Shown here: positions 30,661-39,611 of the stretch, one piece after another
Numbering within the stretch: position 1 is the stretch's first letter
Layout of the letters: each line of letters opens with the position of its first letter
Source of the DNA: Acidimicrobiia bacterium
GTDB taxonomy: Bacteria; Actinomycetota; Acidimicrobiia; Spongiisociales; ZC4RG35
DNA: 64,000 nucleotides
Assembly (NCBI GenBank): GCA_028285585.1
Contig: JANQOU010000008.1
Span: forward strand, 116,298 to 180,297
Direction of reading: 5' to 3'
Notes under the pieces: model-generated
The model's input: only the letters and a program-made list of their open reading frames with translations
Told to the model about the DNA's origin: nothing
Databases searched by the model: none
Made by a program: the position numbers and the translations under genes

Positions 30661-30699
30661 TTACACGTTATTCATAACGTGCAATGTGAAACGTGTCAA
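30661..30699 (-). promoter_or_regulatory. Promoter-operator module A (TTGACA -17 nt- TATGAA with overlapping palindrome TTACACGTTAT-TC-ATAACGTGCAA)
   Basis: Read on minus strand: TTGACA(30699-30694), 17-nt spacer, TATGAA(30676-30671). Palindrome at 30661-30684. Upstream of usp. Confidence 0.6.
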
Positions 30700-32961: not shown

Positions 32962-33000
32962 TTACACGATACTTATAACGTGTAATAGAGTTCGTGTCAA
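32962..33000 (-). promoter_or_regulatory. Promoter-operator module B (TTGACA -17 nt- TATAAG with palindrome TTACACGATAC-TT-ATAACGTGTAA)
   Basis: Same geometry as module A: -35 at 33000-32995, -10 at 32977-32972, palindrome 32962-32985. Upstream of the small ORF and antiporter. Confidence 0.6.
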
Positions 33001-33111: not shown

Positions 33112-33681
33112 ATGACAACAGCAGTGATAGCCGGCCGCGCCCTTCCCAGCTCGCGTGCCATGTCCATCTTCCTCGTCGTGGTCGCTGCCGGCCTGACAGC
33201 CCTTGCGGCCCAGTGGCGCATCCAGCTCCCCTTCACTCCCGTCCCCATCACTGGCTCGACTTTCGCCGTGCTGCTCACCGGCGCCGCACTCGGTTGGCGT
33301 CTCGGTGGCCTCGGGCAGCTGCTCTACTTGGGGATCGGCGTGGCCGGTGTCCCGGTGTTCACAAACGGCACAGGGGGCGTCGAAGTCATCAGGGGTGCGA
33401 CTGGCGGGTACATCATCGGCTTCGTGCTCGCTGCTGCTGCCATCGGATGGCTTGCAGAGCGGCGGCAAGACCGGACCTTCTCAGGCATGTTCACCGCCTT
33501 CCTGGCTGGCTCGGCGATCATCTACATCTGCGGAGTGATCGGGCTCATGGGTGCCACCGGGTGGCCCGTGGCCCAAGCCGTGGAGAACGGTGTCGTGCCC
33601 TTCCTGCTCGGCGACCTGGTCAAGGCAGGGGCTGCCGGGCTGCTGCTCCCGACAGCCTGGCGCTTGCTGGCCAACGACTGA
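33112..33681 (+). CDS. bioY: Biotin transporter BioY
   Basis: 189 aa, BioY blocks (VPITGSTFAVLLTGAALG, GATGGYIIGF, PFLLGDLVKA). Confidence 0.9.
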   Translation: MTTAVIAGRALPSSRAMSIFLVVVAAGLTALAAQWRIQLPFTPVPITGSTFAVLLTGAALGWRLGGLGQLLYLGIGVAGVPVFTNGTGGVEVIRGATGGYIIGFVLAAAAIGWLAERRQDRTFSGMFTAFLAGSAIIYICGVIGLMGATGWPVAQAVENGVVPFLLGDLVKAGAAGLLLPTAWRLLAND

Positions 33682-33746
33682 GCGTTGAACATCTAGGTCT
33701 GGCAAGTCTCGGCTGATTCAACACGCCCGCTGATACGCCTAGGTAT

Positions 33747-33785
33747 CCACAACTTGGAGGCACTTTAGGCTGGAGCAAGTTGTGG
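33747..33785. terminator. Inverted repeat between convergent bioY and avidin-like genes
   Basis: CCACAACTTG ... CAAGTTGTGG, 10-bp arms, 19-nt spacer; no clear U-tract. Confidence 0.3.
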
Positions 33786-33798
33786 CGAACTCCCGCTT

Positions 33799-34233
33799 TT
33801 AAGCGTCCACAGGAGCCGGCGGAGAGGAGGCATGGCCGCGCTGTTGCGCCTTTTTGACTGCTTCCGGGGTTGGAGCAAGGCGCGTAAATATGTCCTGCCC
33901 GACCTTGGTCGCCTGCCAGTCGTCTTGTGGTGCCATCTCACTGACCAGGAACCAGAATGCTGAGATCTCCTCTGCTCCAGATTCGTCAATTTGGTACTGA
34001 CCTGCCCACGCCGTAGTCGAGTGCGCATTTCCGTACGAGTTGACCCAAGTCACAGCCCAAGCACAGGACTGGCCACCAGCTGCGGGAGCGGTGTTGAAAC
34101 GACCTACCAATTGGTAGAAGTCCTTGGCATCTCCAACAGCTGACGAGTATTGCCCGGACAACTGACCGTCAGAAGCGGCGATCCTCATCATCGACCCAAG
34201 CTCGTTATGCCAAACACCAGAAATATCAGCCAC
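33799..34233 (-). CDS. Avidin/streptavidin-family biotin-binding protein, no signal peptide
   Basis: Colinear with core streptavidin: WHNELGS, GQYSSAVGD, WAVTWVN, NAHSTTAWAGQY, FWFLVS, DDWQATKVGQDIFT. GTG start with GAGGTG upstream; in-frame TGA four codons upstream. Confidence 0.85.
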   Translation of the reverse strand: MADISGVWHNELGSMMRIAASDGQLSGQYSSAVGDAKDFYQLVGRFNTAPAAGGQSCAWAVTWVNSYGNAHSTTAWAGQYQIDESGAEEISAFWFLVSEMAPQDDWQATKVGQDIFTRLAPTPEAVKKAQQRGHASSPPAPVDA

Positions 34234-34270
34234 GTCAGCACCTCAACTCGCTAATTGATCTATCACATAG

Positions 34271-34298
34271 CTATTTGTACGTGAGGTCTCTTCACTTC
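34271..34298 (-). promoter_or_regulatory. Shared promoter-like motif GAAGTG-N14-ACAAATAG (copy upstream of avidin-like gene)
   Basis: Minus-strand reading; ACAAATAG ends 37 nt before the GTG start. Confidence 0.4.
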
Positions 34299-34505
34299 AT
34301 GTCGGTCAAGCCGAGTTGCGTACAAGATGTCGGCCAGGTTGCACCTAAACTGGGACAGGCCGGCCTCAGCGTCGATGAAAGGGGCGAGTCGACCGGCCTG
34401 TCCCATCCAGTTCTTTGTCCGGAGACAACTTCTTCTTTCGATGCAATAGATCGGCGACTCGAGACAAATAACTGGTTGGTTAGAACCGTCGATGAAGGGG
34501 GACCC

Positions 34506-35036
34506 ATGTTTGGCGTGCTCACGTCAATCGCACTCGTACTCTCCAGCACTGCTGCGCCAGCTGCCGACAGGCCCGCAACCCACGATGACGTTCACTGTGT
34601 CACCTTCGTTGTTGGGCAAGAAGAGGATGGCCAGCTGATCCTCACAGAGCCCGAATGCTTCAGGCATGAGGCTCATGCTCAGCTATGGGCTCTTGTTGGC
34701 TTGCAACAGCCAGCCTTCACCTTCAGCTCCTTTGGGAGCTTTGGCGGTGGCCTGACCGCCTTCTCTTCAATGACGCTCGGTAAGCACTACTCCGGATCCA
34801 ACGGCACGGGCTCATCGATCACAGTGGTGGGATCGTCGTGCACTGGCGGTTATTGGAACACATGGACATCGTGGGACAACAGAATCTCTTCGTCCTACAA
34901 CGGCTGCGCGAGGCTGCGGCACTATGACCTGCCCAACAAGGCCGGGACGAGCCAGAACACCTACGGCGCCGGCACGACCGACAACCTCACCTACATGAAC
35001 AACAGGACCGAGTCGATTTCGTATCACTCCAGCTAA
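34506..35036 (+). CDS. Secreted hypothetical protein
   Basis: ATG 34506 (GAAGGGGGA upstream) gives signal-like MFGVLTSIALVLSSTAAPAA. C-terminal Cys/Trp/Asn-rich domain (WDNRISSSYNGC...MNNRTESISY). The ORF-track TTG 34275 extension looks non-coding. Confidence 0.6.
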   Translation: MFGVLTSIALVLSSTAAPAADRPATHDDVHCVTFVVGQEEDGQLILTEPECFRHEAHAQLWALVGLQQPAFTFSSFGSFGGGLTAFSSMTLGKHYSGSNGTGSSITVVGSSCTGGYWNTWTSWDNRISSSYNGCARLRHYDLPNKAGTSQNTYGAGTTDNLTYMNNRTESISYHSS

Positions 35037-35145
35037 GTCGCATGAGTTCCACCTAGTCCCAAACCCGGAGGTTCACTCGGACAAGTCAGACGCCGACATC
35101 ATTCTCGCCTCGATCGATCGTCCGTCCGAATTCGGGGCCATCTTC

Positions 35146-35664
35146 TTGCGGCACTACGACCGCGTGTATGCCTACGCAGCGAGACGTACCGGACGCTCAG
35201 AATCCGAGGACATAGCAGCTGAGGTCTTCGTCACGGCCTTCAAGATCCGGCATCGCTACAACGCGAGCCACCCCAACTGCCTGGCCTGGTTGCTGGGCAT
35301 TGCCCGCAACACGGTCGGCGACAGACTTCGGGCAACAAAGCGACGTGACCGCATCTACCTTCGGCTACAGGGCGACACAACGCCACTCATGTCTGAAGAG
35401 GCGGATGGGCGTCTCCTCGCCGCTTCTCTGAGCAAGCCGCTGAACGATGCCTTGCGGAAGTTGTCGACGAACGATCGCGAAGCCTTCCTCCTATACGCCG
35501 TCGACCAGCTCACATACTCAGAGATCGCTGTGACACTTGGGGTTCCCCAAGGAACCGTGGGGTCGCGAATCACTCGCGCCAGGCGAAAGATCGGTCAAGT
35601 GATCCCCAACCTGCAACAAATCAGTGGGCGAATGGGAGACGACATGGAGGCAGGTGGTGCCTGA
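35146..35664 (+). CDS. ECF-type RNA polymerase sigma factor
   Basis: Region 2 (RHYDRVYAYAARRTG...EDIAAEVF) and region 4 HTH (LTYSEIAVTLGVPQGTVGSRITRARRKI). TTG start is the first canonical start; sigma-like sequence seems to continue upstream. Confidence 0.85.
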   Translation: MRHYDRVYAYAARRTGRSESEDIAAEVFVTAFKIRHRYNASHPNCLAWLLGIARNTVGDRLRATKRRDRIYLRLQGDTTPLMSEEADGRLLAASLSKPLNDALRKLSTNDREAFLLYAVDQLTYSEIAVTLGVPQGTVGSRITRARRKIGQVIPNLQQISGRMGDDMEAGGA

Positions 35665-36634
35665 GCGACAGCATCGCCTCGACCGCCTGATCCGGATCGT
35701 TGCCGGCACTCCCGTGGCCAGCCGCGCCGCACGCGATCAGGCCGAACGAGACCTTTCAGCGGCCATGAGCTCTCCACCTGTAGTTTCGCCACGCCGACCC
35801 ACCCTGCTGTTGGGGCTCTTGACACTGCTCGTGCTGGTGGTCGTTGTCTTCCTGGTTCAAGCTGCAAGCTTCAGCCCCGCCGCGGCCACCATCAATCAAC
35901 TCGCCGAAATCGCTGAACAAGTTGGGCCTGTTGAAGCCCGGGACGCTTCCTTCGTGTACACCAGGTCGACAACAGCCAGCCTGGTGGTGATACCCAAGGA
36001 AGGCCTTCGAGGTGTGTCGTACGACTCGGATCACCTCGTGTACGAAGAGCGAACGATCCGCGAGTCCTGGATAGGAACCGACGGCACGGTCCAGATCTCA
36101 ATCACAGTCCTCGACCCAATGTTTCTGTCCGACAACGACAGGGCCACCTACTACGCGGCCGGCATCAACGAGCAGGATCAAGTGGGAGAGACAGTCACCT
36201 CCACAATCAGCCAAGCAGAAGACGTCGTATGGCCGTCCGACCCCAACTCTCTCGACGAGGTCATCCGCCGGCATCTCGCTAACGAAAGCGACCTCCCACA
36301 GGCAGTGAAATACCTGAATATGGCTCTCGGCATAATCCGAGAGTCTCATGCCTCGCCAGACCTGCGAGCTGCGACGATGCGACTAGTGGGCACTCTCGAT
36401 GACCTCGAGCTCCTCGGAGTAGACGACGCCGGCACGGCCACGTTCTCAATCAGTTTCGTCGAGCAGGGAATCGACAAGACACAGACCTTCAGCCTCGACA
36501 CCTCCGGCTATGTCCGTCTAGAACGGACCACCAGGGTGGCGGATGATCCGACGTTCGGCATCCCCGCCCAAACTGTGGAGTCGCAGTGGATCTCAGAGCA
36601 ACCTCGCCTCGTGTCGACGCTCGACTCTCCGTAG
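35624..36634 (+). CDS. Single-pass membrane protein downstream of ECF sigma (putative anti-sigma factor)
   Basis: Overlaps sigma gene end (alternative GTG at 35657); one TM (LLLGLLTLLVLVVVVFLV); large extracytoplasmic domain; gene order typical of sigma/anti-sigma pairs. Confidence 0.6.
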   Translation: MGEWETTWRQVVPERQHRLDRLIRIVAGTPVASRAARDQAERDLSAAMSSPPVVSPRRPTLLLGLLTLLVLVVVVFLVQAASFSPAAATINQLAEIAEQVGPVEARDASFVYTRSTTASLVVIPKEGLRGVSYDSDHLVYEERTIRESWIGTDGTVQISITVLDPMFLSDNDRATYYAAGINEQDQVGETVTSTISQAEDVVWPSDPNSLDEVIRRHLANESDLPQAVKYLNMALGIIRESHASPDLRAATMRLVGTLDDLELLGVDDAGTATFSISFVEQGIDKTQTFSLDTSGYVRLERTTRVADDPTFGIPAQTVESQWISEQPRLVSTLDSP

Positions 36635-36654
36635 CGGCCACGAGTCGGCCAACC

Positions 36655-36682
36655 GAATAGAAGCCGAGGCTTGGACAAATAG
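36655..36682 (+). promoter_or_regulatory. Shared promoter-like motif GAATAG-N14-ACAAATAG (copy upstream of papain-fold gene)
   Basis: ACAAATAG ends 18 nt before the TTG start at 36701; GGAGGTGG lies between. Confidence 0.45.
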
Positions 36683-36700
36683 TCGGGTGGAGGTGGAACT

Positions 36701-37576
36701 TTGAGTGTCCAAGTTGCTCTCGACATTTTCAGCGGAAGACCCAACCCCACAGTCACCCTCGAAGGAAGGGAGGCGGCTTCTCTGCTCGAGCGAGCCCAGC
36801 CAACTGTCCGGATCGAACTAGACGAATCCCCTACACCTCCGCCAACTCTGGGTTACAGGGGAATCCTCATCGACCAAGACGAGACAGCTGACCTGCCGCG
36901 CCTGAGCCGCATTCGCGACAACCGCCTCTTTGGGGCCGGCCTCGCTCATCATGCGCGCGACGAGAGCCTCGAAGAATTCTTGATCAGCGACGAAGGCCCC
37001 TTTGCCCAAACCGAAACCGGGATTGAGGTGCTATCCGACCTCAGCGAGCTGCGAGACAAGGCTCTGACCACTGACTGGTCTGACTGGTCCTGGCTAGATG
37101 ACATCATCATCCCCCCATGGCCGGCTCCGTGTAAGTGCGGGCCGATCTATGAGCCGTCATGGTGGAACGTCCCAAGCCGCCAGCCTTATAACAACTGTTA
37201 CAACTATGCGACCAACTATCGGACCGACACCTTTGCGCAGCCTGGCCGAGCCAACGGAGCGATGTACAGCTCCCTCACCTGCAGGTCCGTTCAGCCGGCT
37301 GCAGTCGCCGACAAGCTCATCGAGTCACCTGACGCTGACAATCGGTGCCCTGAAGAGGGACACCTCGTCGCGCTTGTCGTCTGGCCTGGTGGGGACTACC
37401 ACTGGTATCGGAAGGGTGAGGACGGTTGGTGGACTCACAAGCCTGGCAGTACCGCCGTGACCAACCTGGACAACTCCGGAAAGAAAATCGTCGACCCGAG
37501 AACAGCCGACCGAGGCCCATACACTGAGTTCTGCACCTTCATGGTGGTCATGCATGGGCACATCAAGATCGGGTAA
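36701..37576 (+). CDS. Two-domain protein: N-terminal SGRPxP...LGYRG domain + C-terminal papain-fold (protein-glutaminase-like) Cys/His/Asp domain
   Basis: C-domain blocks YNNCYNYA, GHLVALVVW / GWWTHKPG and KKIVDPRTA recall protein-glutaminase DGCYARAH, WSYHVAILV, KRIIDPSLF. No signal peptide. Confidence 0.6.
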   Translation: MSVQVALDIFSGRPNPTVTLEGREAASLLERAQPTVRIELDESPTPPPTLGYRGILIDQDETADLPRLSRIRDNRLFGAGLAHHARDESLEEFLISDEGPFAQTETGIEVLSDLSELRDKALTTDWSDWSWLDDIIIPPWPAPCKCGPIYEPSWWNVPSRQPYNNCYNYATNYRTDTFAQPGRANGAMYSSLTCRSVQPAAVADKLIESPDADNRCPEEGHLVALVVWPGGDYHWYRKGEDGWWTHKPGSTAVTNLDNSGKKIVDPRTADRGPYTEFCTFMVVMHGHIKIG

Positions 37577-37901
37577 CTGGACAGCAACGGCCCACCTGCA
37601 CTCTGGCCGCCCGGACCCGGCTTGGACAGTCCCAGAACAGCAGGCTGTGGAACTCATCAATAAGTGGCAGGGTCTGCCTACGGCAGCCTCCTCGTCATCG
37701 CCGGGCAGCCAACTCGGCTATCGCGGAGTCAGTCTCGCGGGACCGGGCGAAGAGACATGGACTGCGGAACGAGGTGTGGTGACCAAGACACACAGCGGGG
37801 GCCACCGGAAGGATGCAGGACGGGAATGGGAACGTGCCCTGCTCGAGACTGCACCCCAAGGACTTCTTCCACCCGTCGATCTGTCGGACCGGTCAGCTTG
37901 A
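37554..37901 (+). CDS. Stand-alone paralogue of the N-terminal domain of the preceding protein
   Basis: HSGRPDPAWTV...SQLGYRGVSL...GHRKDAGREWERALL parallels FSGRPNPTVTL...PTLGYRGILI...HHARDESLEEFLI; overlaps upstream gene by 23 nt. Confidence 0.55.
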   Translation: MGTSRSGNWTATAHLHSGRPDPAWTVPEQQAVELINKWQGLPTAASSSSPGSQLGYRGVSLAGPGEETWTAERGVVTKTHSGGHRKDAGREWERALLETAPQGLLPPVDLSDRSA

Positions 37902-37956
37902 ACTGGGCACCTGGGCGACTGTCGGCAGCAACACACGCCAGCCGAAGCACACAAGG

Positions 37957-39006
37957 CTATTTGGTGCTGATTGTGTAGCCGTCTCCGGGTGTGGCGACAA
38001 CTGGTGTCGTCTCACCGTGAGGGACAACTTCGATAGGCGTCTTCTTCGACAGCGTCCCAGACACTTTGAACTCGATCCGAGTAGTGGTCCACAAAGAAAC
38101 AGTGACACTGCCCTTGCCGAATGACAATGTGCCTTCTGGCATCGGTAGATACGAGCCCTCTATGGCATACGTCGTCCCGGGAACGAGCGCCGTCGGCGCT
38201 GGCTCAGTCGATCCACCAGTCGTGTACACGCCAGTGATAGTTGGCGTCCGTTGGAGGACAGACTGAAGCCACGAGACCAACTGGTTGTAAGCCGGATTCG
38301 ACTCCGCTGAGTCCAGGTCTGTCGCATACTCGCGAATGAACGTGGGGGTGACAAAGAGGTACGTGTCCTTGTGGAGTTGCCACGTCGTGTGCACTGTCTC
38401 TTCCTTGAAGCAGGGGCCGATCTTCAAATACTGCTTGTTGATGTCGACGTCGGCGTAGACCACCAATGCACTGACTATTGGCATGCCGAGCAGGTACTCA
38501 CAGACGAAAACGATGTTGGCGACTTTGCTATCCACAGAGGAGTGGGACTCGCTGATCGCCAAACCCTCCCGGCCGAGAGAAGCCACCATGGCTGACGCAA
38601 AAGACATCTCGCCGGCACCTGTGGCCAACCCGAGTAGCGCCTCGATCATCTCCTTCGAGAAGTCCATCCCGAAGCTGCTGGACTTGTACGTGACGTCCTC
38701 TTCCGTCACGTGGACGAACAGGCCGGATCCACTGATGACGTTGTTGAGAGCCGTGTAGTTGTAGATCGAATAGGGCTTCTTGGTGACCGGGTTGATAGTC
38801 GTCGAGATCGCCTTGGTCATCGCAGCGAAGAAGACCGAAACCTCGGCAAAGATGTCTTGCACCGACTTCTCGATGGGCTCGTTCGAGTCGACAGTGCTGG
38901 AGATCATGATGTTGCCGGTCTCGTTGAAGATGTAGTACTTCGTTGCCTCGAGATTGTGCGGGTCTCGAGATGGGACCTTCAGTGGCGTGGACTTTGTTTC
39001 AGCCAT
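37957..39006 (-). CDS. Hypothetical 349-aa protein: unknown ~260-aa N-domain + C-terminal beta-sandwich-like tail
   Basis: AGGAG 7 nt upstream of ATG; no signal peptide or TM; no family recognised. The last ~90 aa (TITGVYTTGG...IEFKVSG...) look Ig/IPT-like. Confidence 0.6.
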   Translation of the reverse strand: MAETKSTPLKVPSRDPHNLEATKYYIFNETGNIMISSTVDSNEPIEKSVQDIFAEVSVFFAAMTKAISTTINPVTKKPYSIYNYTALNNVISGSGLFVHVTEEDVTYKSSSFGMDFSKEMIEALLGLATGAGEMSFASAMVASLGREGLAISESHSSVDSKVANIVFVCEYLLGMPIVSALVVYADVDINKQYLKIGPCFKEETVHTTWQLHKDTYLFVTPTFIREYATDLDSAESNPAYNQLVSWLQSVLQRTPTITGVYTTGGSTEPAPTALVPGTTYAIEGSYLPMPEGTLSFGKGSVTVSLWTTTRIEFKVSGTLSKKTPIEVVPHGETTPVVATPGDGYTISTK

Positions 39007-39077
39007 CGGATCACTCCTAGATCGCCCGTGTAGACCAATCGGGTGCCGATGCGCGTCGCAACCGGCTCCTCACTCTT

Positions 39078-39105
39078 CTATTTGTCTGCCGTCCCAAGAT
39101 CATTG
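39078..39105 (-). promoter_or_regulatory. Shared promoter-like motif CAATGA-N14-ACAAATAG (copy upstream of 349-aa gene)
   Basis: Minus-strand reading, about 70 nt upstream of ATG 39006. Confidence 0.35.
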
Positions 39106-39140
39106 CGACCTATGGAGAAGCTGGTGAGATGGAGGCACTG

Positions 39141-39392
39141 CTAACAGTCAGGCAAGTTGTCGAGATTGTTTGAGTGGGTGCCATCAGCGACGGTCTTCAG
39201 GTGCCCGTCAATGGTCACATACACCTCGGTGTGAGTCCCGGCCTCGTCCACGAAGTACTTGTGCAAACCACTCTTTATGTCGCTGACGGCATCTGCCTTC
39301 GATCTCGGCGACCACAACTCCCCCGTGTTGCACAGAGCTGTGATGTCACCATCTGGATCCTTGCCCGTCTGTCGTACTCGTCGCTCGGCCAT
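39141..39392 (-). CDS. DUF3892-domain protein
   Basis: 83 aa; GDITALCN...WSPRSKADAVSDIKSG...NNLDNLPDC matches my memory of DUF3892 proteins. Confidence 0.7.
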   Translation of the reverse strand: MAERRVRQTGKDPDGDITALCNTGELWSPRSKADAVSDIKSGLHKYFVDEAGTHTEVYVTIDGHLKTVADGTHSNNLDNLPDC

Positions 39393-39419
39393 GAGACACC
39401 TCCTCGTCGTCCCAAACTC

Positions 39420-39447
39420 CTATTTGTCGAGTGTCGAATCGCTATTC
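39420..39447 (-). promoter_or_regulatory. Shared promoter-like motif GAATAG-N14-ACAAATAG (copy upstream of DUF3892 gene)
   Basis: Minus-strand reading; ACAAATAG ends 27 nt before ATG 39392; GAGGAGG lies between. Confidence 0.45.
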
Positions 39448-39611
39448 ACCCAAGTGGCTTGGGGGCATCCAATGACACGCACATGCGACCACGGCCGCCG
39501 TCGCCTCCCTCTCGAGATCGAATAGGACTGCGGTCTCTGAGAGAACCTCCAGGAGCGAGGCCATACCCCAATTCCGGGTCTGGTGAGCAAGCGACAATTC
39601 GATGGCGTTCC

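What the first reader, a model, noticed from the sequence alone, without database searches (positions are those of the whole stretch)
33112..34233. Signal-less streptavidin homologue convergent with the biotin transporter gene bioY
The 144-aa ORF is colinear with core streptavidin and keeps the blocks that carry biotin contacts:
- WHNELGS vs WYNQLGS
- GQYSSAVGD vs GTYESAVGN
- WAVTWVN vs WTVAWKN
- NAHSTTAWAGQY vs NAHSATTWSGQY
- FWFLVS vs QWLLTS
- DDWQATKVGQDIF vs NAWKSTLVGHDTF, which includes the inter-subunit Trp

The GTG start has a GAGGTG Shine-Dalgarno. An in-frame TGA lies four codons upstream, so there is no room for a signal peptide.

The gene ends 118 nt from the end of bioY, in convergent orientation.

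A cytoplasmic high-affinity biotin binder next to the biotin importer is unusual. Possible roles are biotin buffering or storage, a biotin-starvation weapon released on lysis, or stress-induced metabolic arrest. It also carries the ACAAATAG promoter-like motif shared with the neighbouring islet genes.
Basis: partly seen in the sequence, partly recalled or inferred. Interest (0 to 1): 0.7.

Follow-up and report, generated by a model that had tools for sequence, protein, structure and literature searches.

The report
Non-secreted streptavidin relative beside bioY
This is an intact gene for a streptavidin-like biotin-binding protein that has no export signal, one of a large and little-studied group of such proteins; its position next to the biotin importer gene is peculiar to this lineage, not a conserved two-gene system.

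Summary
ORF 33799-34233(-) encodes a 144-aa avidin-family protein (Pfam E=6e-28). It is 45% identical to streptavidin, and 15 of 16 pocket or interface residues checked are identical. AlphaFold gives pLDDT 93 and about 1 Å rmsd to core streptavidin. An in-frame TGA four codons upstream leaves no room for a signal peptide. bioY (Pfam E=8e-40) converges on it across 117 nt.

- Lacking a signal is normal for this clade: 94 of 152 nearest cluster representatives, and 81 of 143 fetched loci, have no room for one.
- The bioY linkage is not conserved. BioY is nearby in 1 of 143 other avidin loci, and in none of five bioY loci from related Acidimicrobiia.
- The avidin gene is compositionally foreign (GC3 0.58 against 0.73±0.06) and shares a promoter-like motif with a low-GC islet, not with bioY.
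- Avidin genes do recur beside biotin-supply genes (bioY, bioBFCDA, bioB, bioA) in 4 of 90 clusters. Eighteen control cofactor genes gave one hit.

Most likely it is a cytoplasmic trap for free biotin, capped by its own C-terminal tail. Its physiological role is unresolved: a private hoard or sink, or a withholding weapon released on lysis.

The clade carries a fixed-position S-H-P tail motif resembling the Strep-tag. The window protein has S-S-P there.

The parts
33799..34233 (-). Avidin-family CDS: 144 aa, GTG start, TAA stop at 33799-33801
   Evidence: ORF. Pfam PF01382 E=6.1e-28. Streptavidin E about 2.5e-29. AF2 pLDDT 93.3. Foldseek rmsd about 1.0-1.1 Å to core streptavidin.
34239..34244 (-). 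Shine-Dalgarno-like GAGGTG, 5 nt upstream of the GTG start
   Evidence: Read directly from the sequence.
34243..34245 (-). In-frame TGA four codons upstream of the start; it excludes any N-terminal extension
   Evidence: Sequence. Stop-to-first-Trp distance is 10 codons.
33802..33882 (-). C-terminal extension, residues 118-144: a helix at 123-132 followed by a tail. It is homologous to the C-terminal polypeptide of full-length streptavidin.
   Evidence: Aligned with streptavidin 132-156, including APVDA against NPLDA. AF2 predicts helix 123-132, with tail pLDDT about 67-72. Foldseek aligns 136 columns at 2.0 Å to full-length streptavidin 2bc3_B.
33820..33828 (-). Codons for S136-S137-P138, the register where the signal-less clade carries its conserved S-H-P motif (here His is replaced by Ser)
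   Evidence: Alignments A2 and A5. Motif statistics.
34271..34278 (-). ACAAATAG promoter-like motif, 38-45 nt upstream of the avidin start; shared with three other islet genes
   Evidence: 4 matches against 0.25 expected. Alignment of the four sites.
33112..33681 (+). bioY, the biotin-specific S component. No bioM/bioN lies beside it (a solitary BioY at this locus).
   Evidence: PF02632 E=7.9e-40. Orthologues at 70-76% identity are named BioY in Acidimicrobiia MAGs. The neighbours are a Na+/H+ exchanger and the avidin gene.
33682..33798 (.). 117-nt spacer between the convergent stop codons. It contains a perfect 10-bp inverted repeat (33747-33756 / 33776-33785).
   Evidence: the repeat finder. 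The fold is not significant, z=-0.8. No T-tract terminator was found.
33700..39600 (.). Lower-GC islet to which the avidin gene belongs compositionally. It holds the avidin gene, a putative secreted protein, an ECF sigma factor, a CU044_5270-family protein (candidate anti-sigma factor by position only), three or four ORFs of unknown function, and a DUF3892 ORF.
   Evidence: GC falls from about 0.65 to 0.54-0.60 right after bioY. Avidin GC3 is 0.579 against a mean of 0.725. All four ACAAATAG sites lie inside it. Domains.

Best explanation
The ORF is an intact, probably horizontally acquired gene for a non-secreted streptavidin-type biotin binder.

**Shown**
- It belongs to the avidin family and folds (by prediction) as an eight-stranded barrel.
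- It keeps 15 of the 16 streptavidin residues checked: 14 of 15 biotin-pocket residues, including the Trp donated by the neighbouring subunit. N49 becomes Asp; the interface residue H127 becomes Gln.
- It cannot carry an N-terminal signal peptide.
- It belongs to a large clade, found in bacteria, some archaeal MAGs and probably fungi, whose members start directly at strand 1.
- It has a C-terminal helix plus tail homologous to the streptavidin extension.

**Inferred**
- It folds and tetramerises in the cytoplasm and binds free biotin very tightly.
- The tail folds back over or into the pocket as an intrinsic pseudo-ligand, as reported for full-length streptavidin and bradavidin. Bulky biotinylated carboxylases would then be spared while free biotin displaces the tail.

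**Net effect.** A cytoplasmic sink for free biotin. Its expression is probably driven with the neighbouring low-GC islet (shared ACAAATAG motif, ECF sigma factor), not with bioY.

**The bioY adjacency.** It is a lineage-specific juxtaposition of a native gene and an incoming islet, not a conserved module. It does fit a weak general tendency for avidin genes to be kept beside biotin-supply genes. That placement would either offset the cost of sequestering biotin or feed the sink.

**Physiological payoff (least certain).** Hoarding or withholding of biotin. This could be a private reserve in a vitamin-poor habitat, or an anti-nutritional factor released when the cell is lysed or eaten.
For: **Family, fold and pocket**
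- Pfam and PDB sequence hits.
- 45% identity over 138 aligned positions; N23, L25, S27, Y43, S45, V47, W79, S88, T90, W92, W108, L110, W120 and D128 are conserved.
- AF2 pLDDT 93.3. Foldseek gives about 1 Å rmsd to core streptavidin.

**No signal peptide**
- In-frame stop four codons upstream.
- Homologues begin at the same position.
- 94 of 152 nearest representatives, and 81 of 143 genomic ORFs, have no room for one. Only 8 of 143 show a hydrophobic N-extension.

**Tail**
- It aligns to the streptavidin C-terminus.
- The model superposes on tail-in-pocket full-length streptavidin 2bc3 over 136 columns at 2.0 Å. The S-H-P-bearing relative P0002 superposes over 141 columns at 2.3 Å.
- Streptavidin residues 150-153 occupy the pocket, and bradavidin's tail hinders large biotinylated ligands (PMC3344845).
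- A fixed-position HP motif occurs in 106 of 165 signal-less tails against 9.6 expected, and in 1 of 13 signal-bearing ones.

**Foreign origin and islet membership**
- GC3 0.579 against 0.725±0.059. The GC drop starts right after bioY.
- Motif enrichment.
- Avidin homologues on 85 plasmids.
- No synteny with any related locus.

**bioY linkage is lineage-specific:**

**Weak recurrent link to biotin genes:**
Against: - No binding, localisation or expression data exist.
- The AF2 coordinates could not be inspected, so tail docking rests on superposition statistics and precedent. Tail pLDDT in the window protein is only about 67-72.
- The window protein lacks the clade's conserved His (it has S-S-P), so its tail may behave differently.
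- N49 is replaced by Asp. The effect on affinity is unknown.
- A femtomolar binder with a slow off-rate is a poor reversible store.
- Low GC3 could reflect low expression rather than transfer.
- No mobility genes or tRNA mark the islet's borders.
- Signal-peptide absence was judged by room and hydrophobicity, not by SignalP. Non-classical export is not excluded.
Confidence: 0.55

Rival explanations
1. BioY and the avidin form a selected functional pair. The cytoplasmic avidin traps biotin that enters through the solitary BioY, so uptake becomes effectively one-way (a 'pull' or buffer-and-store system). The two genes are co-regulated or mutually regulated through convergent transcription.
For: - The genes are immediately adjacent, and BioY has no bioMN partner at the locus.
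- A second, independent avidin-bioY adjacency exists in a Thermomicrobia MAG, L059.
- Avidin genes sit directly upstream of bioBFCDA (L124/L127), next to bioB (L012), and 1.1 kb from bioA (L007 group). All were validated above NCBIfam cut-offs.
- Eighteen control cofactor genes gave 1 hit in the same loci.
Against: - BioY is present in only 1 of 143 other loci, and not in L057, the closest relative of L059.
- Five bioY loci of related Acidimicrobiia lack an avidin.
- The avidin gene is compositionally foreign and shares its upstream motif with islet genes, not with bioY.
- The palindrome upstream of bioY is absent upstream of the avidin gene.
- The orientation is convergent, so the genes cannot form an operon.
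Confidence: 0.2
2. The protein acts outside the cell like streptavidin, as a biotin-starvation antibiotic. It would leave the cell by a non-classical route or by programmed or predator-induced lysis. This resembles what has been proposed for the fungal tamavidins, which I recall as lacking a signal peptide. Under this model the bioY adjacency is coincidental or serves self-protection.
For: - The family-wide defensive interpretation, and the frequent location of avidin genes on mobile elements (PMC8033661).
- Homologues on 85 plasmids.
- A patchy distribution across phyla and varied neighbourhoods, typical of accessory or competition genes.
- In the window it lies in an islet with an ECF sigma factor and a putative secreted protein.
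- In L049 a signal-bearing and a signal-less avidin gene lie in tandem.
Against: - There is no export signal of any recognisable kind.
- A cytoplasmic apo-avidin would be saturated by the cell's own biotin before release.
- There are no hits to defence-system models and none in phage genomes.
- No lysis or secretion genes are conserved nearby.
Confidence: 0.17
3. The protein keeps the avidin fold but does not serve as a high-affinity biotin binder. It might bind another ligand such as a biotin precursor or a peptide. Alternatively it is a silent, recently transferred gene on its way to decay.
For: - N49 is replaced by Asp, H127 by Gln, and the clade's tail His is lost.
- GC3 is atypical.
- The closest GTDB relative, L003, carries an in-frame stop inside its avidin ORF.
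- The score is below the NCBIfam streptavidin equivalog cut-off, 123 against 300 bits.
Against: - 15 of 16 residues checked are identical to streptavidin.
- The ORF is intact, with a good SD and an N-terminus matching its homologues.
- The model is high-confidence and superposes on streptavidin at about 1 Å.
Confidence: 0.08

Closest known systems
Streptavidin (Streptomyces avidinii), including full-length streptavidin, PDB 2BC3
   Same: - 45% identity over 138 aligned positions.
- 15 of the 16 pocket or interface residues checked are identical, including the W120 equivalent.
- The loop 3-4 residues checked (S45, V47, N49) align without a gap in that stretch.
- The C-terminal extension is homologous down to the terminal P-[LV]-D-A.
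- The predicted structure superposes at about 1 Å on the core and 2.0 Å over 136 columns on the full-length form.
   Different: - There is no signal peptide and no N-terminal pro-segment.
- It scores 123 bits against the 300-bit NCBIfam streptavidin equivalog cut-off.
- N49 is replaced by Asp, and H127 by Gln.
- The source is an Acidimicrobiia-type genome, not Streptomyces.
- No stravidin-type partner is evident.
Tamavidin 1 and 2 (Pleurotus cornucopiae)
   Same: Short (about 140 aa) avidin-family proteins that begin a few residues before strand 1 with W-Y-N-E-L, and that I recall as lacking a signal peptide. This rests on my memory of Takakura et al. 2009 and was not verified here. They cluster with streptavidins in the published tree (PMC8033661).
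   Different: - They are eukaryotic.
- Their tail, as I recall it, lacks both the S-H-P motif and the streptavidin-like P-V-D-A ending.
- No direct comparison was run, because I did not have a verified sequence.
Bradavidin and hoefavidin (avidins with intrinsic C-terminal ligands)
   Same: A C-terminal extension occupies the biotin site and hinders large biotinylated ligands. The authors speculated that this spares the host's biotinylated proteins (PMC3344845; hoefavidin is cited in PMC8033661).
   Different: - Their tails are unrelated in sequence (the Brad-tag is SEKLSNTK).
- In bradavidin the tail binds across subunits.
- Tail docking here is inferred, not shown.
Putative bacterial avidins without a predicted signal peptide (survey by Laitinen et al. 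2021)
   Same: This is the same class of prediction. About half of the surveyed bacterial avidins lacked a SignalP signal, the genes were often on mobile elements, and no clear association with particular pathways was seen (PMC8033661).
   Different: - That survey does not mention bioY, 'intracellular' or 'cytoplasm', Acidimicrobiia, or HPQ (zero text matches for each).
- No member of the signal-less bacterial group appears to have been characterised.
Solitary BioY (an ECF S component without a dedicated BioMN)
   Same: A BioY-family protein with no adjacent A or T components, as in the related Acidimicrobiia loci.
   Different: Whether an ECF module exists elsewhere in the genome is unknown, since only 64 kb is available.

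Membership tests
Avidin family (Pfam PF01382) | Profile match above the curated gathering score over the whole domain | tested here: met
   98 bits against a cut-off of 24; residues 4-117 match profile positions 2-116 of 116.
Avidin family (Pfam PF01382) | Eight-stranded antiparallel beta-barrel | tested here: met
   The AF2 model has 8 strands and pLDDT 93.3. Foldseek probability is 1.00, TMt 0.92-0.95, rmsd about 1.0-1.6 Å to core streptavidin.
Avidin family (Pfam PF01382) | Biotin-contact residues (streptavidin N23, S27, Y43, S45, N49, S88, T90, D128; W79, W92, W108) and the inter-subunit Trp (W120) | tested here: met
   All are identical except N49, which is Asp35 here.
Avidin family (Pfam PF01382) | High-affinity biotin binding in vitro; tetramer formation | not testable with these tools
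   Needs the recombinant protein, with HABA, ITC or fluorescent-biotin assays and SEC-MALS.
Streptavidin proper (NCBIfam NF047623 equivalog) | Score above the equivalog cut-off | tested here: not met
   123.1 bits against a cut-off of 300.
Streptavidin proper (NCBIfam NF047623 equivalog) | Sec signal peptide and secretion | tested here: not met
   In-frame stop four codons upstream of the start; only 7 residues precede the first barrel Trp.
Signal-less, tail-bearing avidin clade (defined here) | Start codon 5-8 residues before the first barrel Trp, with the motif G-x-W-x-N-E-L-G-S | tested here: met
   The protein begins MADISGVWHNELGS. The same layout is seen in 94 of 152 nearest representatives and most of the 143 loci.
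Signal-less, tail-bearing avidin clade (defined here) | S-H-P motif at a fixed distance (His at +20) after the D-x-F end of the barrel | tested here: not met
   The window protein has S-S-P in that register. The motif is present in 106 of 165 clade members, 79 of them at exactly +20.
Avidins with an intrinsic C-terminal ligand (full-length streptavidin, bradavidin, hoefavidin) | The C-terminal extension occupies the biotin pocket in the apo protein | tested here: inconclusive
   The extension is present and homologous to streptavidin's. The model aligns over 136 columns at 2.0 Å to 2bc3_B. Tail pLDDT is only about 67-72, and the coordinates could not be inspected.
ECF-type biotin transporter BioYMN | BioY S component | tested here: met
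   PF02632 at 136.5 bits against a cut-off of 25.
ECF-type biotin transporter BioYMN | Adjacent bioM (the A component, an ATPase) and bioN (the T component) | tested here: not met
   The neighbours are a Na+/H+ exchanger-TrkA fusion and the avidin gene. The related loci also lack them.
Known anti-phage defence systems (PADLOC) | Match to any defence-system protein model | tested here: not met
   No hits for the avidin or for seven islet proteins.

The most novel reading that the evidence does not exclude
Signal-less avidins may be a widespread and uncharacterised class of cytoplasmic free-biotin traps that gate themselves with a built-in 'natural Strep-tag'. This would be a conserved S-H-P(x) motif held exactly 20 residues after the barrel. 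It would sit in the biotin pocket as the HPQ peptides and streptavidin's own residues 150-153 do. The trap would then capture free biotin while leaving biotinylated carboxylases untouched.

On this reading, the recurrent placement beside bioY, bioBFCDA, bioB or bioA reflects a real physiological circuit: a sink that pulls or stores biotin, or a supply that pays for the sink. The window protein, with S-S-P and a streptavidin-like P-V-D-A ending, would be a natural variant with altered gating, paired with a solitary BioY.
Probability: 0.25. Interest if true: 0.7.

Novelty: new member of a known kind. Interest (0 to 1): 0.45.

Why it matters
The biological role of avidins is still unclear more than 80 years after avidin was identified, and every characterised bacterial avidin I could confirm is secreted. 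A non-secreted member with a fully conserved pocket raises a direct question: how does a cell tolerate a femtomolar biotin binder in the same compartment as BirA and its carboxylases?

The family-level data gathered here give two testable answers:
- a self-capping tail;
- occasional coupling to biotin supply genes.

If the tail works as proposed, these proteins would also be of practical interest. They would be naturally self-blocked streptavidin scaffolds, and natural counterparts of the Strep-tag/streptavidin pair.

For this particular window the finding is modest. It is a new, intact member of that clade whose adjacency to bioY is not conserved.

Tried and rejected
- **Word-indexed protein search.** It found only the protein itself and one 55%-identical metagenomic protein. 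The exhaustive HMMER search was needed.
- **Contig look-up.** The exact-protein look-up for the window protein returned nothing.
- **Related-locus scans.** The 44-sequence alignment was too diverse for the search for related loci. The single-protein metagenome scan found no relatives. Narrower alignments worked.
- **Conserved partner gene.** All-against-all clustering of 644 neighbour ORFs gave no cluster in more than 7 loci. Pfam on 133 immediate neighbours gave a top family in only 5.
- **Synteny.** Window flanking genes matched the 143 loci only through BioY in L059, plus one weak ECF sigma hit.
- **Shared operator.** The palindrome TTACACG-N10-CGTGTAA lies upstream of bioY and of a Usp gene. 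It is not upstream of the avidin gene, and it is not conserved upstream of bioY in relatives. I rejected it as a biotin operator.
- **Terminator between the convergent genes.** No T-tract terminator was found. The 10-bp hairpin is not energetically unusual.
- **Other negative searches.**
  - Rfam and tRNA scans of the window found nothing.
  - PADLOC found nothing.
  - Phage genomes gave no match.
- **Literature.** Searches for an avidin-bioY link, and for a statement on tamavidin's signal peptide, found nothing usable.
- **False leads among biotin-gene hits.** L014's 'BioA-like' gene falls below the BioA cut-off. L069's 'BioF-like' gene was not tested against NCBIfam and is not specific within the BioF/Kbl family. 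Neither was counted.
Full report
**1.

The window holds a 144-aa ORF at 33799..34233(-) with a GTG start, and a 189-aa ORF at 33112..33681(+). On the minus strand the start region reads ...GAGT TGA GGT GCT GAC GTG GCT GAT... This gives a GAGGTG Shine-Dalgarno at 34239-34244, 5 nt before the GTG, and an in-frame TGA at 34243-34245, four codons upstream.

The 144-aa protein matches Pfam Avidin PF01382 end to end (E=6.1e-28, 98 bits, cut-off 24). The other ORF matches BioY PF02632 (E=7.9e-40). Streptavidin chains in the PDB match at E about 2.5e-29, with query residues 2-137 aligned to mature streptavidin 15-151.

ACAAATAG occurs four times in the window against 0.25 expected.

**2. What the protein is.**

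A pairwise alignment with mature streptavidin gives 45% identity over 138 positions.
- Identical: N23, L25, S27, Y43, S45, V47, W79, S88, T90, W92, W108, L110, D128, and the inter-subunit W120.
- Changed: N49 becomes Asp35, and the interface residue H127 becomes Gln113.

AlphaFold2 with a 44-sequence alignment gives mean pLDDT 93.3. It predicts eight strands, a short helix at 102-107, and a C-terminal helix at 123-132. Foldseek places the model on core streptavidin at about 1.0-1.1 Å over about 121 columns.

The protein is not streptavidin itself. It scores 123 bits against the 300-bit NCBIfam equivalog cut-off.

bioY orthologues at 70-76% identity come from Acidimicrobiia MAGs, so the window is most likely from that class.

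**3. No signal peptide, but that is the rule in this clade.**

Only 7 residues precede the first barrel Trp, and an in-frame stop lies three codons before that. No upstream ORF in another frame is hydrophobic.

An exhaustive HMMER search found 843 relatives at E≤0.001. Of the 152 sequences examined (150 hits plus P0001 and P0002):
- 94 have at most 14 residues before the G-x-W-x-N-E-L motif;
- 22 have a hydrophobic N-extension;
- 25 have an N-extension with no hydrophobic stretch;
- 11 did not match the motif used for classification.

I fetched 143 genomic and metagenomic loci. In 81 of them an in-frame stop lies 25 codons or fewer upstream of the first Trp. Only 8 show a hydrophobic 10-mer upstream, six of them in Amycolatopsis or Streptomyces.

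One caveat applies. The DNA patterns used to fetch loci (G-x-W-Y-N-E-L-G...) favour this clade. The unbiased figure is the HMMER one.

A published survey reported signal peptides in only about 50% of putative bacterial avidins (PMC8033661). 'Signal-less' is therefore not unusual, although no such bacterial protein seems to have been characterised.

**4. The C-terminal tail.**

Residues 118-144 align with streptavidin's C-terminal polypeptide down to the ending APVDA against NPLDA. In T7-tagged full-length streptavidin (2BC3), residues 150-153 occupy the biotin site as an intrasubunit ligand. Bradavidin's tail behaves similarly and reduces binding of large biotinylated ligands. Those authors speculated that this protects the host's own biotinylated proteins (PMC3344845).

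The window model gives its highest query TM-score (0.84) with 2bc3_B, at 136 columns and 2.0 Å.

Across the clade the tail carries a striking feature. Of 165 non-identical signal-less members with a tail of at least 20 residues, 106 have His-Pro 14-30 residues after the barrel's D-x-F. In 79 of these the spacing is exactly +20, and the preceding residue is usually Ser. Shuffled tails would give 9.6. Among members with a hydrophobic N-extension the count is 1 of 13.

S-H-P(Q) is the core of Strep-tag II, WSHPQFEK (table in PMC3344845). A model of the S-H-P-bearing relative P0002 has pLDDT 87 over residues 131-140, and aligns to 2bc3_B over 141 columns at 2.3 Å.

The window protein has S-S-P in that register, and its tail pLDDT is lower, at about 67. 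I could not inspect coordinates, so docking of the tail remains an inference.

**5. The bioY linkage.**

Evidence that the linkage is not conserved:
- A BioY profile found BioY near the avidin gene in one of the 73 GTDB loci. This is L059, a Thermomicrobia MAG, where the genes are divergent and 550 bp apart. It found BioY in none of the 70 metagenomic loci.
- L057, whose avidin clusters with L059's at 70% identity or more, has no BioY.
- Five bioY loci from related Acidimicrobiia share the context UPF0182 - DivIVA - PDZ/Lon_C - bioY - convergent Liv-type ABC operon, and none has an avidin.
- In the window, avidin GC3 is 0.579, the lowest of 36 genes (mean 0.725, sd 0.059). bioY's GC3 is 0.795.
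- GC content drops immediately after bioY and stays low to about 39.6 kb.
- No window flanking gene recurs in any related locus.
- Neighbour clustering and Pfam scans show no conserved partner.

The adjacency is therefore a junction between a native gene and an incoming islet.

A weaker association is nevertheless real. E. coli Bio proteins used as queries found the following, with NCBIfam scores in brackets:
- a signal-less avidin directly upstream of bioB-F-C-D-A in L124/L127 (BioB 415 bits, cut-off 225);
- bioB directly downstream of a signal-bearing avidin in Amycolatopsis, L012 (387 bits);
- bioA 1.1 kb from the avidin gene in the L007/L082/L083 group (530 bits, cut-off 405).

Together with L059, that is 4 of 90 avidin clusters at 70% identity. 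Eighteen control genes from six other cofactor pathways (thiamine, pantothenate, folate, molybdopterin, lipoate, riboflavin) were searched in the same way over the same loci. They gave a single hit.

As a rough inference, the control rate is about 0.17 events per pathway, so four events for biotin is unlikely by chance. This was not a formal test.

**6. Local regulation.**

All four ACAAATAG sites sit upstream of islet ORFs in their orientation: the avidin gene, orf36701, orf39006(-) and the DUF3892 ORF 39141..39392(-). Two of them share GAATAG-N14-ACAAATAG. A third has a degenerate first element (AATGAT) at N13. The islet encodes an ECF sigma factor, followed by a CU044_5270-family protein that could be its anti-sigma factor.

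The avidin gene therefore looks co-regulated with the islet. Nothing links its upstream region to that of bioY.

**7. How it most likely works, and the rivals.**

Shown:
- an intact avidin-family gene with a conserved pocket;
- no N-terminal signal;
- membership of a large signal-less clade;
- a streptavidin-homologous tail;
- foreign composition;
- lineage-specific adjacency to bioY.

Inferred:
- cytoplasmic folding and tetramerisation;
- tight binding of free biotin;
- a tail acting as a competitive cap that spares biotinylated carboxylases;
- expression with the islet.

I cannot decide the physiological payoff between a private biotin hoard or sink and a withholding weapon released on lysis. 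Placement near biotin-supply genes fits both: a supply feeding the sink, or a supply paying for the cost.

The rivals and their weights are listed in the Rival explanations section: a dedicated BioY-avidin module, extracellular action, and a non-binder or decaying gene.

**8. Comparison with what is known, and novelty.**

It works like streptavidin or tamavidin with a bradavidin- or full-length-streptavidin-style intrinsic tail. It is a member of the avidin family, but not of streptavidin proper. It is a new member of a known kind.

The family-level S-H-P motif, and its restriction to signal-less members, did not turn up in the two avidin papers I text-searched (no 'HPQ' match in either). It is the most interesting by-product of this work.

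**9. Limits.**

- SignalP was not available.
- Gene calls in fetched loci were greedy ORF calls.
- The enrichment estimate is rough.
- Only 64 kb of the source genome is known.

Noticed in passing
Family level: proteins P0002-P0152 and loci L002-L144. The window register is 33820-33828.: Signal-less avidins carry a fixed-position S-H-P motif, with His exactly 20 residues after the barrel's D-x-F in 79 sequences. HP is present in 106 of 165 against 9.6 expected, and in 1 of 13 signal-bearing members. Some read SHPQ, as in Strep-tag II. The window protein has S-S-P there.
   Followed up: partly
L124 236-5110; L127 4474-7767: In a low-GC metagenomic organism a signal-less avidin gene lies directly upstream of bioB-bioF-bioC-bioD-bioA on the same strand. 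A T-rich stretch that looks like a terminator separates them.
   Followed up: partly
L012 10001-11534; L007 4247-7233: In Amycolatopsis sacchari a signal-peptide-bearing avidin gene is followed directly by a bona fide bioB. In a Nitrospirae MAG a bona fide bioA lies 1.1 kb upstream of a signal-less avidin gene.
   Followed up: partly
window 30661-30684 and 32962-32985: A 24-bp palindrome, TTACACG-N10-CGTGTAA, occurs once perfectly and once with one mismatch, on either side of the Na+/H+ exchanger-TrkA gene. One copy is 13 nt upstream of a tandem-Usp gene that precedes Mrp antiporter genes. The other is 127 nt upstream of bioY. It is likely an operator of a cation or pH-stress regulon. Two matches at up to 3 mismatches are not significant on their own (26 of 100 shuffles).
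   Followed up: partly
window 34271-34278, 36675-36682, 39078-39085, 39420-39427: ACAAATAG occurs 4 times against 0.25 expected, each copy upstream of an islet ORF in its orientation. Two share GAATAG-N14-ACAAATAG. This is a candidate promoter for the islet, which also encodes an ECF sigma factor (35146-35664).
   Followed up: partly
window 34351-34363 / 34393-34405: A perfect 13-nt inverted repeat, TGGGACAGGCCGG-N29-CCGGCCTGTCCCA, lies in the divergent region between the avidin gene and orf34506.
   Followed up: no
L003 9908-10440: The closest GTDB relative (an Acidimicrobiia MAG, 56% identity) has an in-frame stop at the position of Gln81 (WAGQY*VD), with the homology continuing in frame afterwards. 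This could be a pseudogene, a sequencing error or recoding.
   Followed up: no
L049 728-1680; L030 8195-10420: There are tandem avidin paralogues. In L049 (Flavihumibacter) the first copy has a clear signal-peptide-like N-terminus and the second has none.
   Followed up: no
L148, L149, L150, L152: about 60-90 nt upstream of bioY (near 5920-5990 in L148, L150 and L152): Related Acidimicrobiia share a conserved element upstream of bioY: GGTAAC(G/T)A(C/T)GACC followed by a GACC-N10-GGTC-like palindrome. The window shows only a degenerate version. It may be a biotin-regulon operator.
   Followed up: no
L006, L008, L011, L016, L017 (Candidatus Methanoperedens); L058 (Nitrososphaeraceae): Signal-less avidin genes occur in archaeal MAGs. 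In Methanoperedens the upstream neighbour belongs to one cluster seen in four of these loci. An AAT (PF03417) family match was found in 3 of the 133 immediate neighbours, but I did not map it to specific loci.
   Followed up: no
window 34506-35036, 36701-37576, 37957-39006: Islet ORFs without family assignment. One has a signal-peptide-like N-terminus and a faint peptidase-inhibitor I36 resemblance (E=0.19). One is a Cys/Trp-rich 291-aa protein. One is a 349-aa protein with a faint TIG-domain hit.
   Followed up: partly
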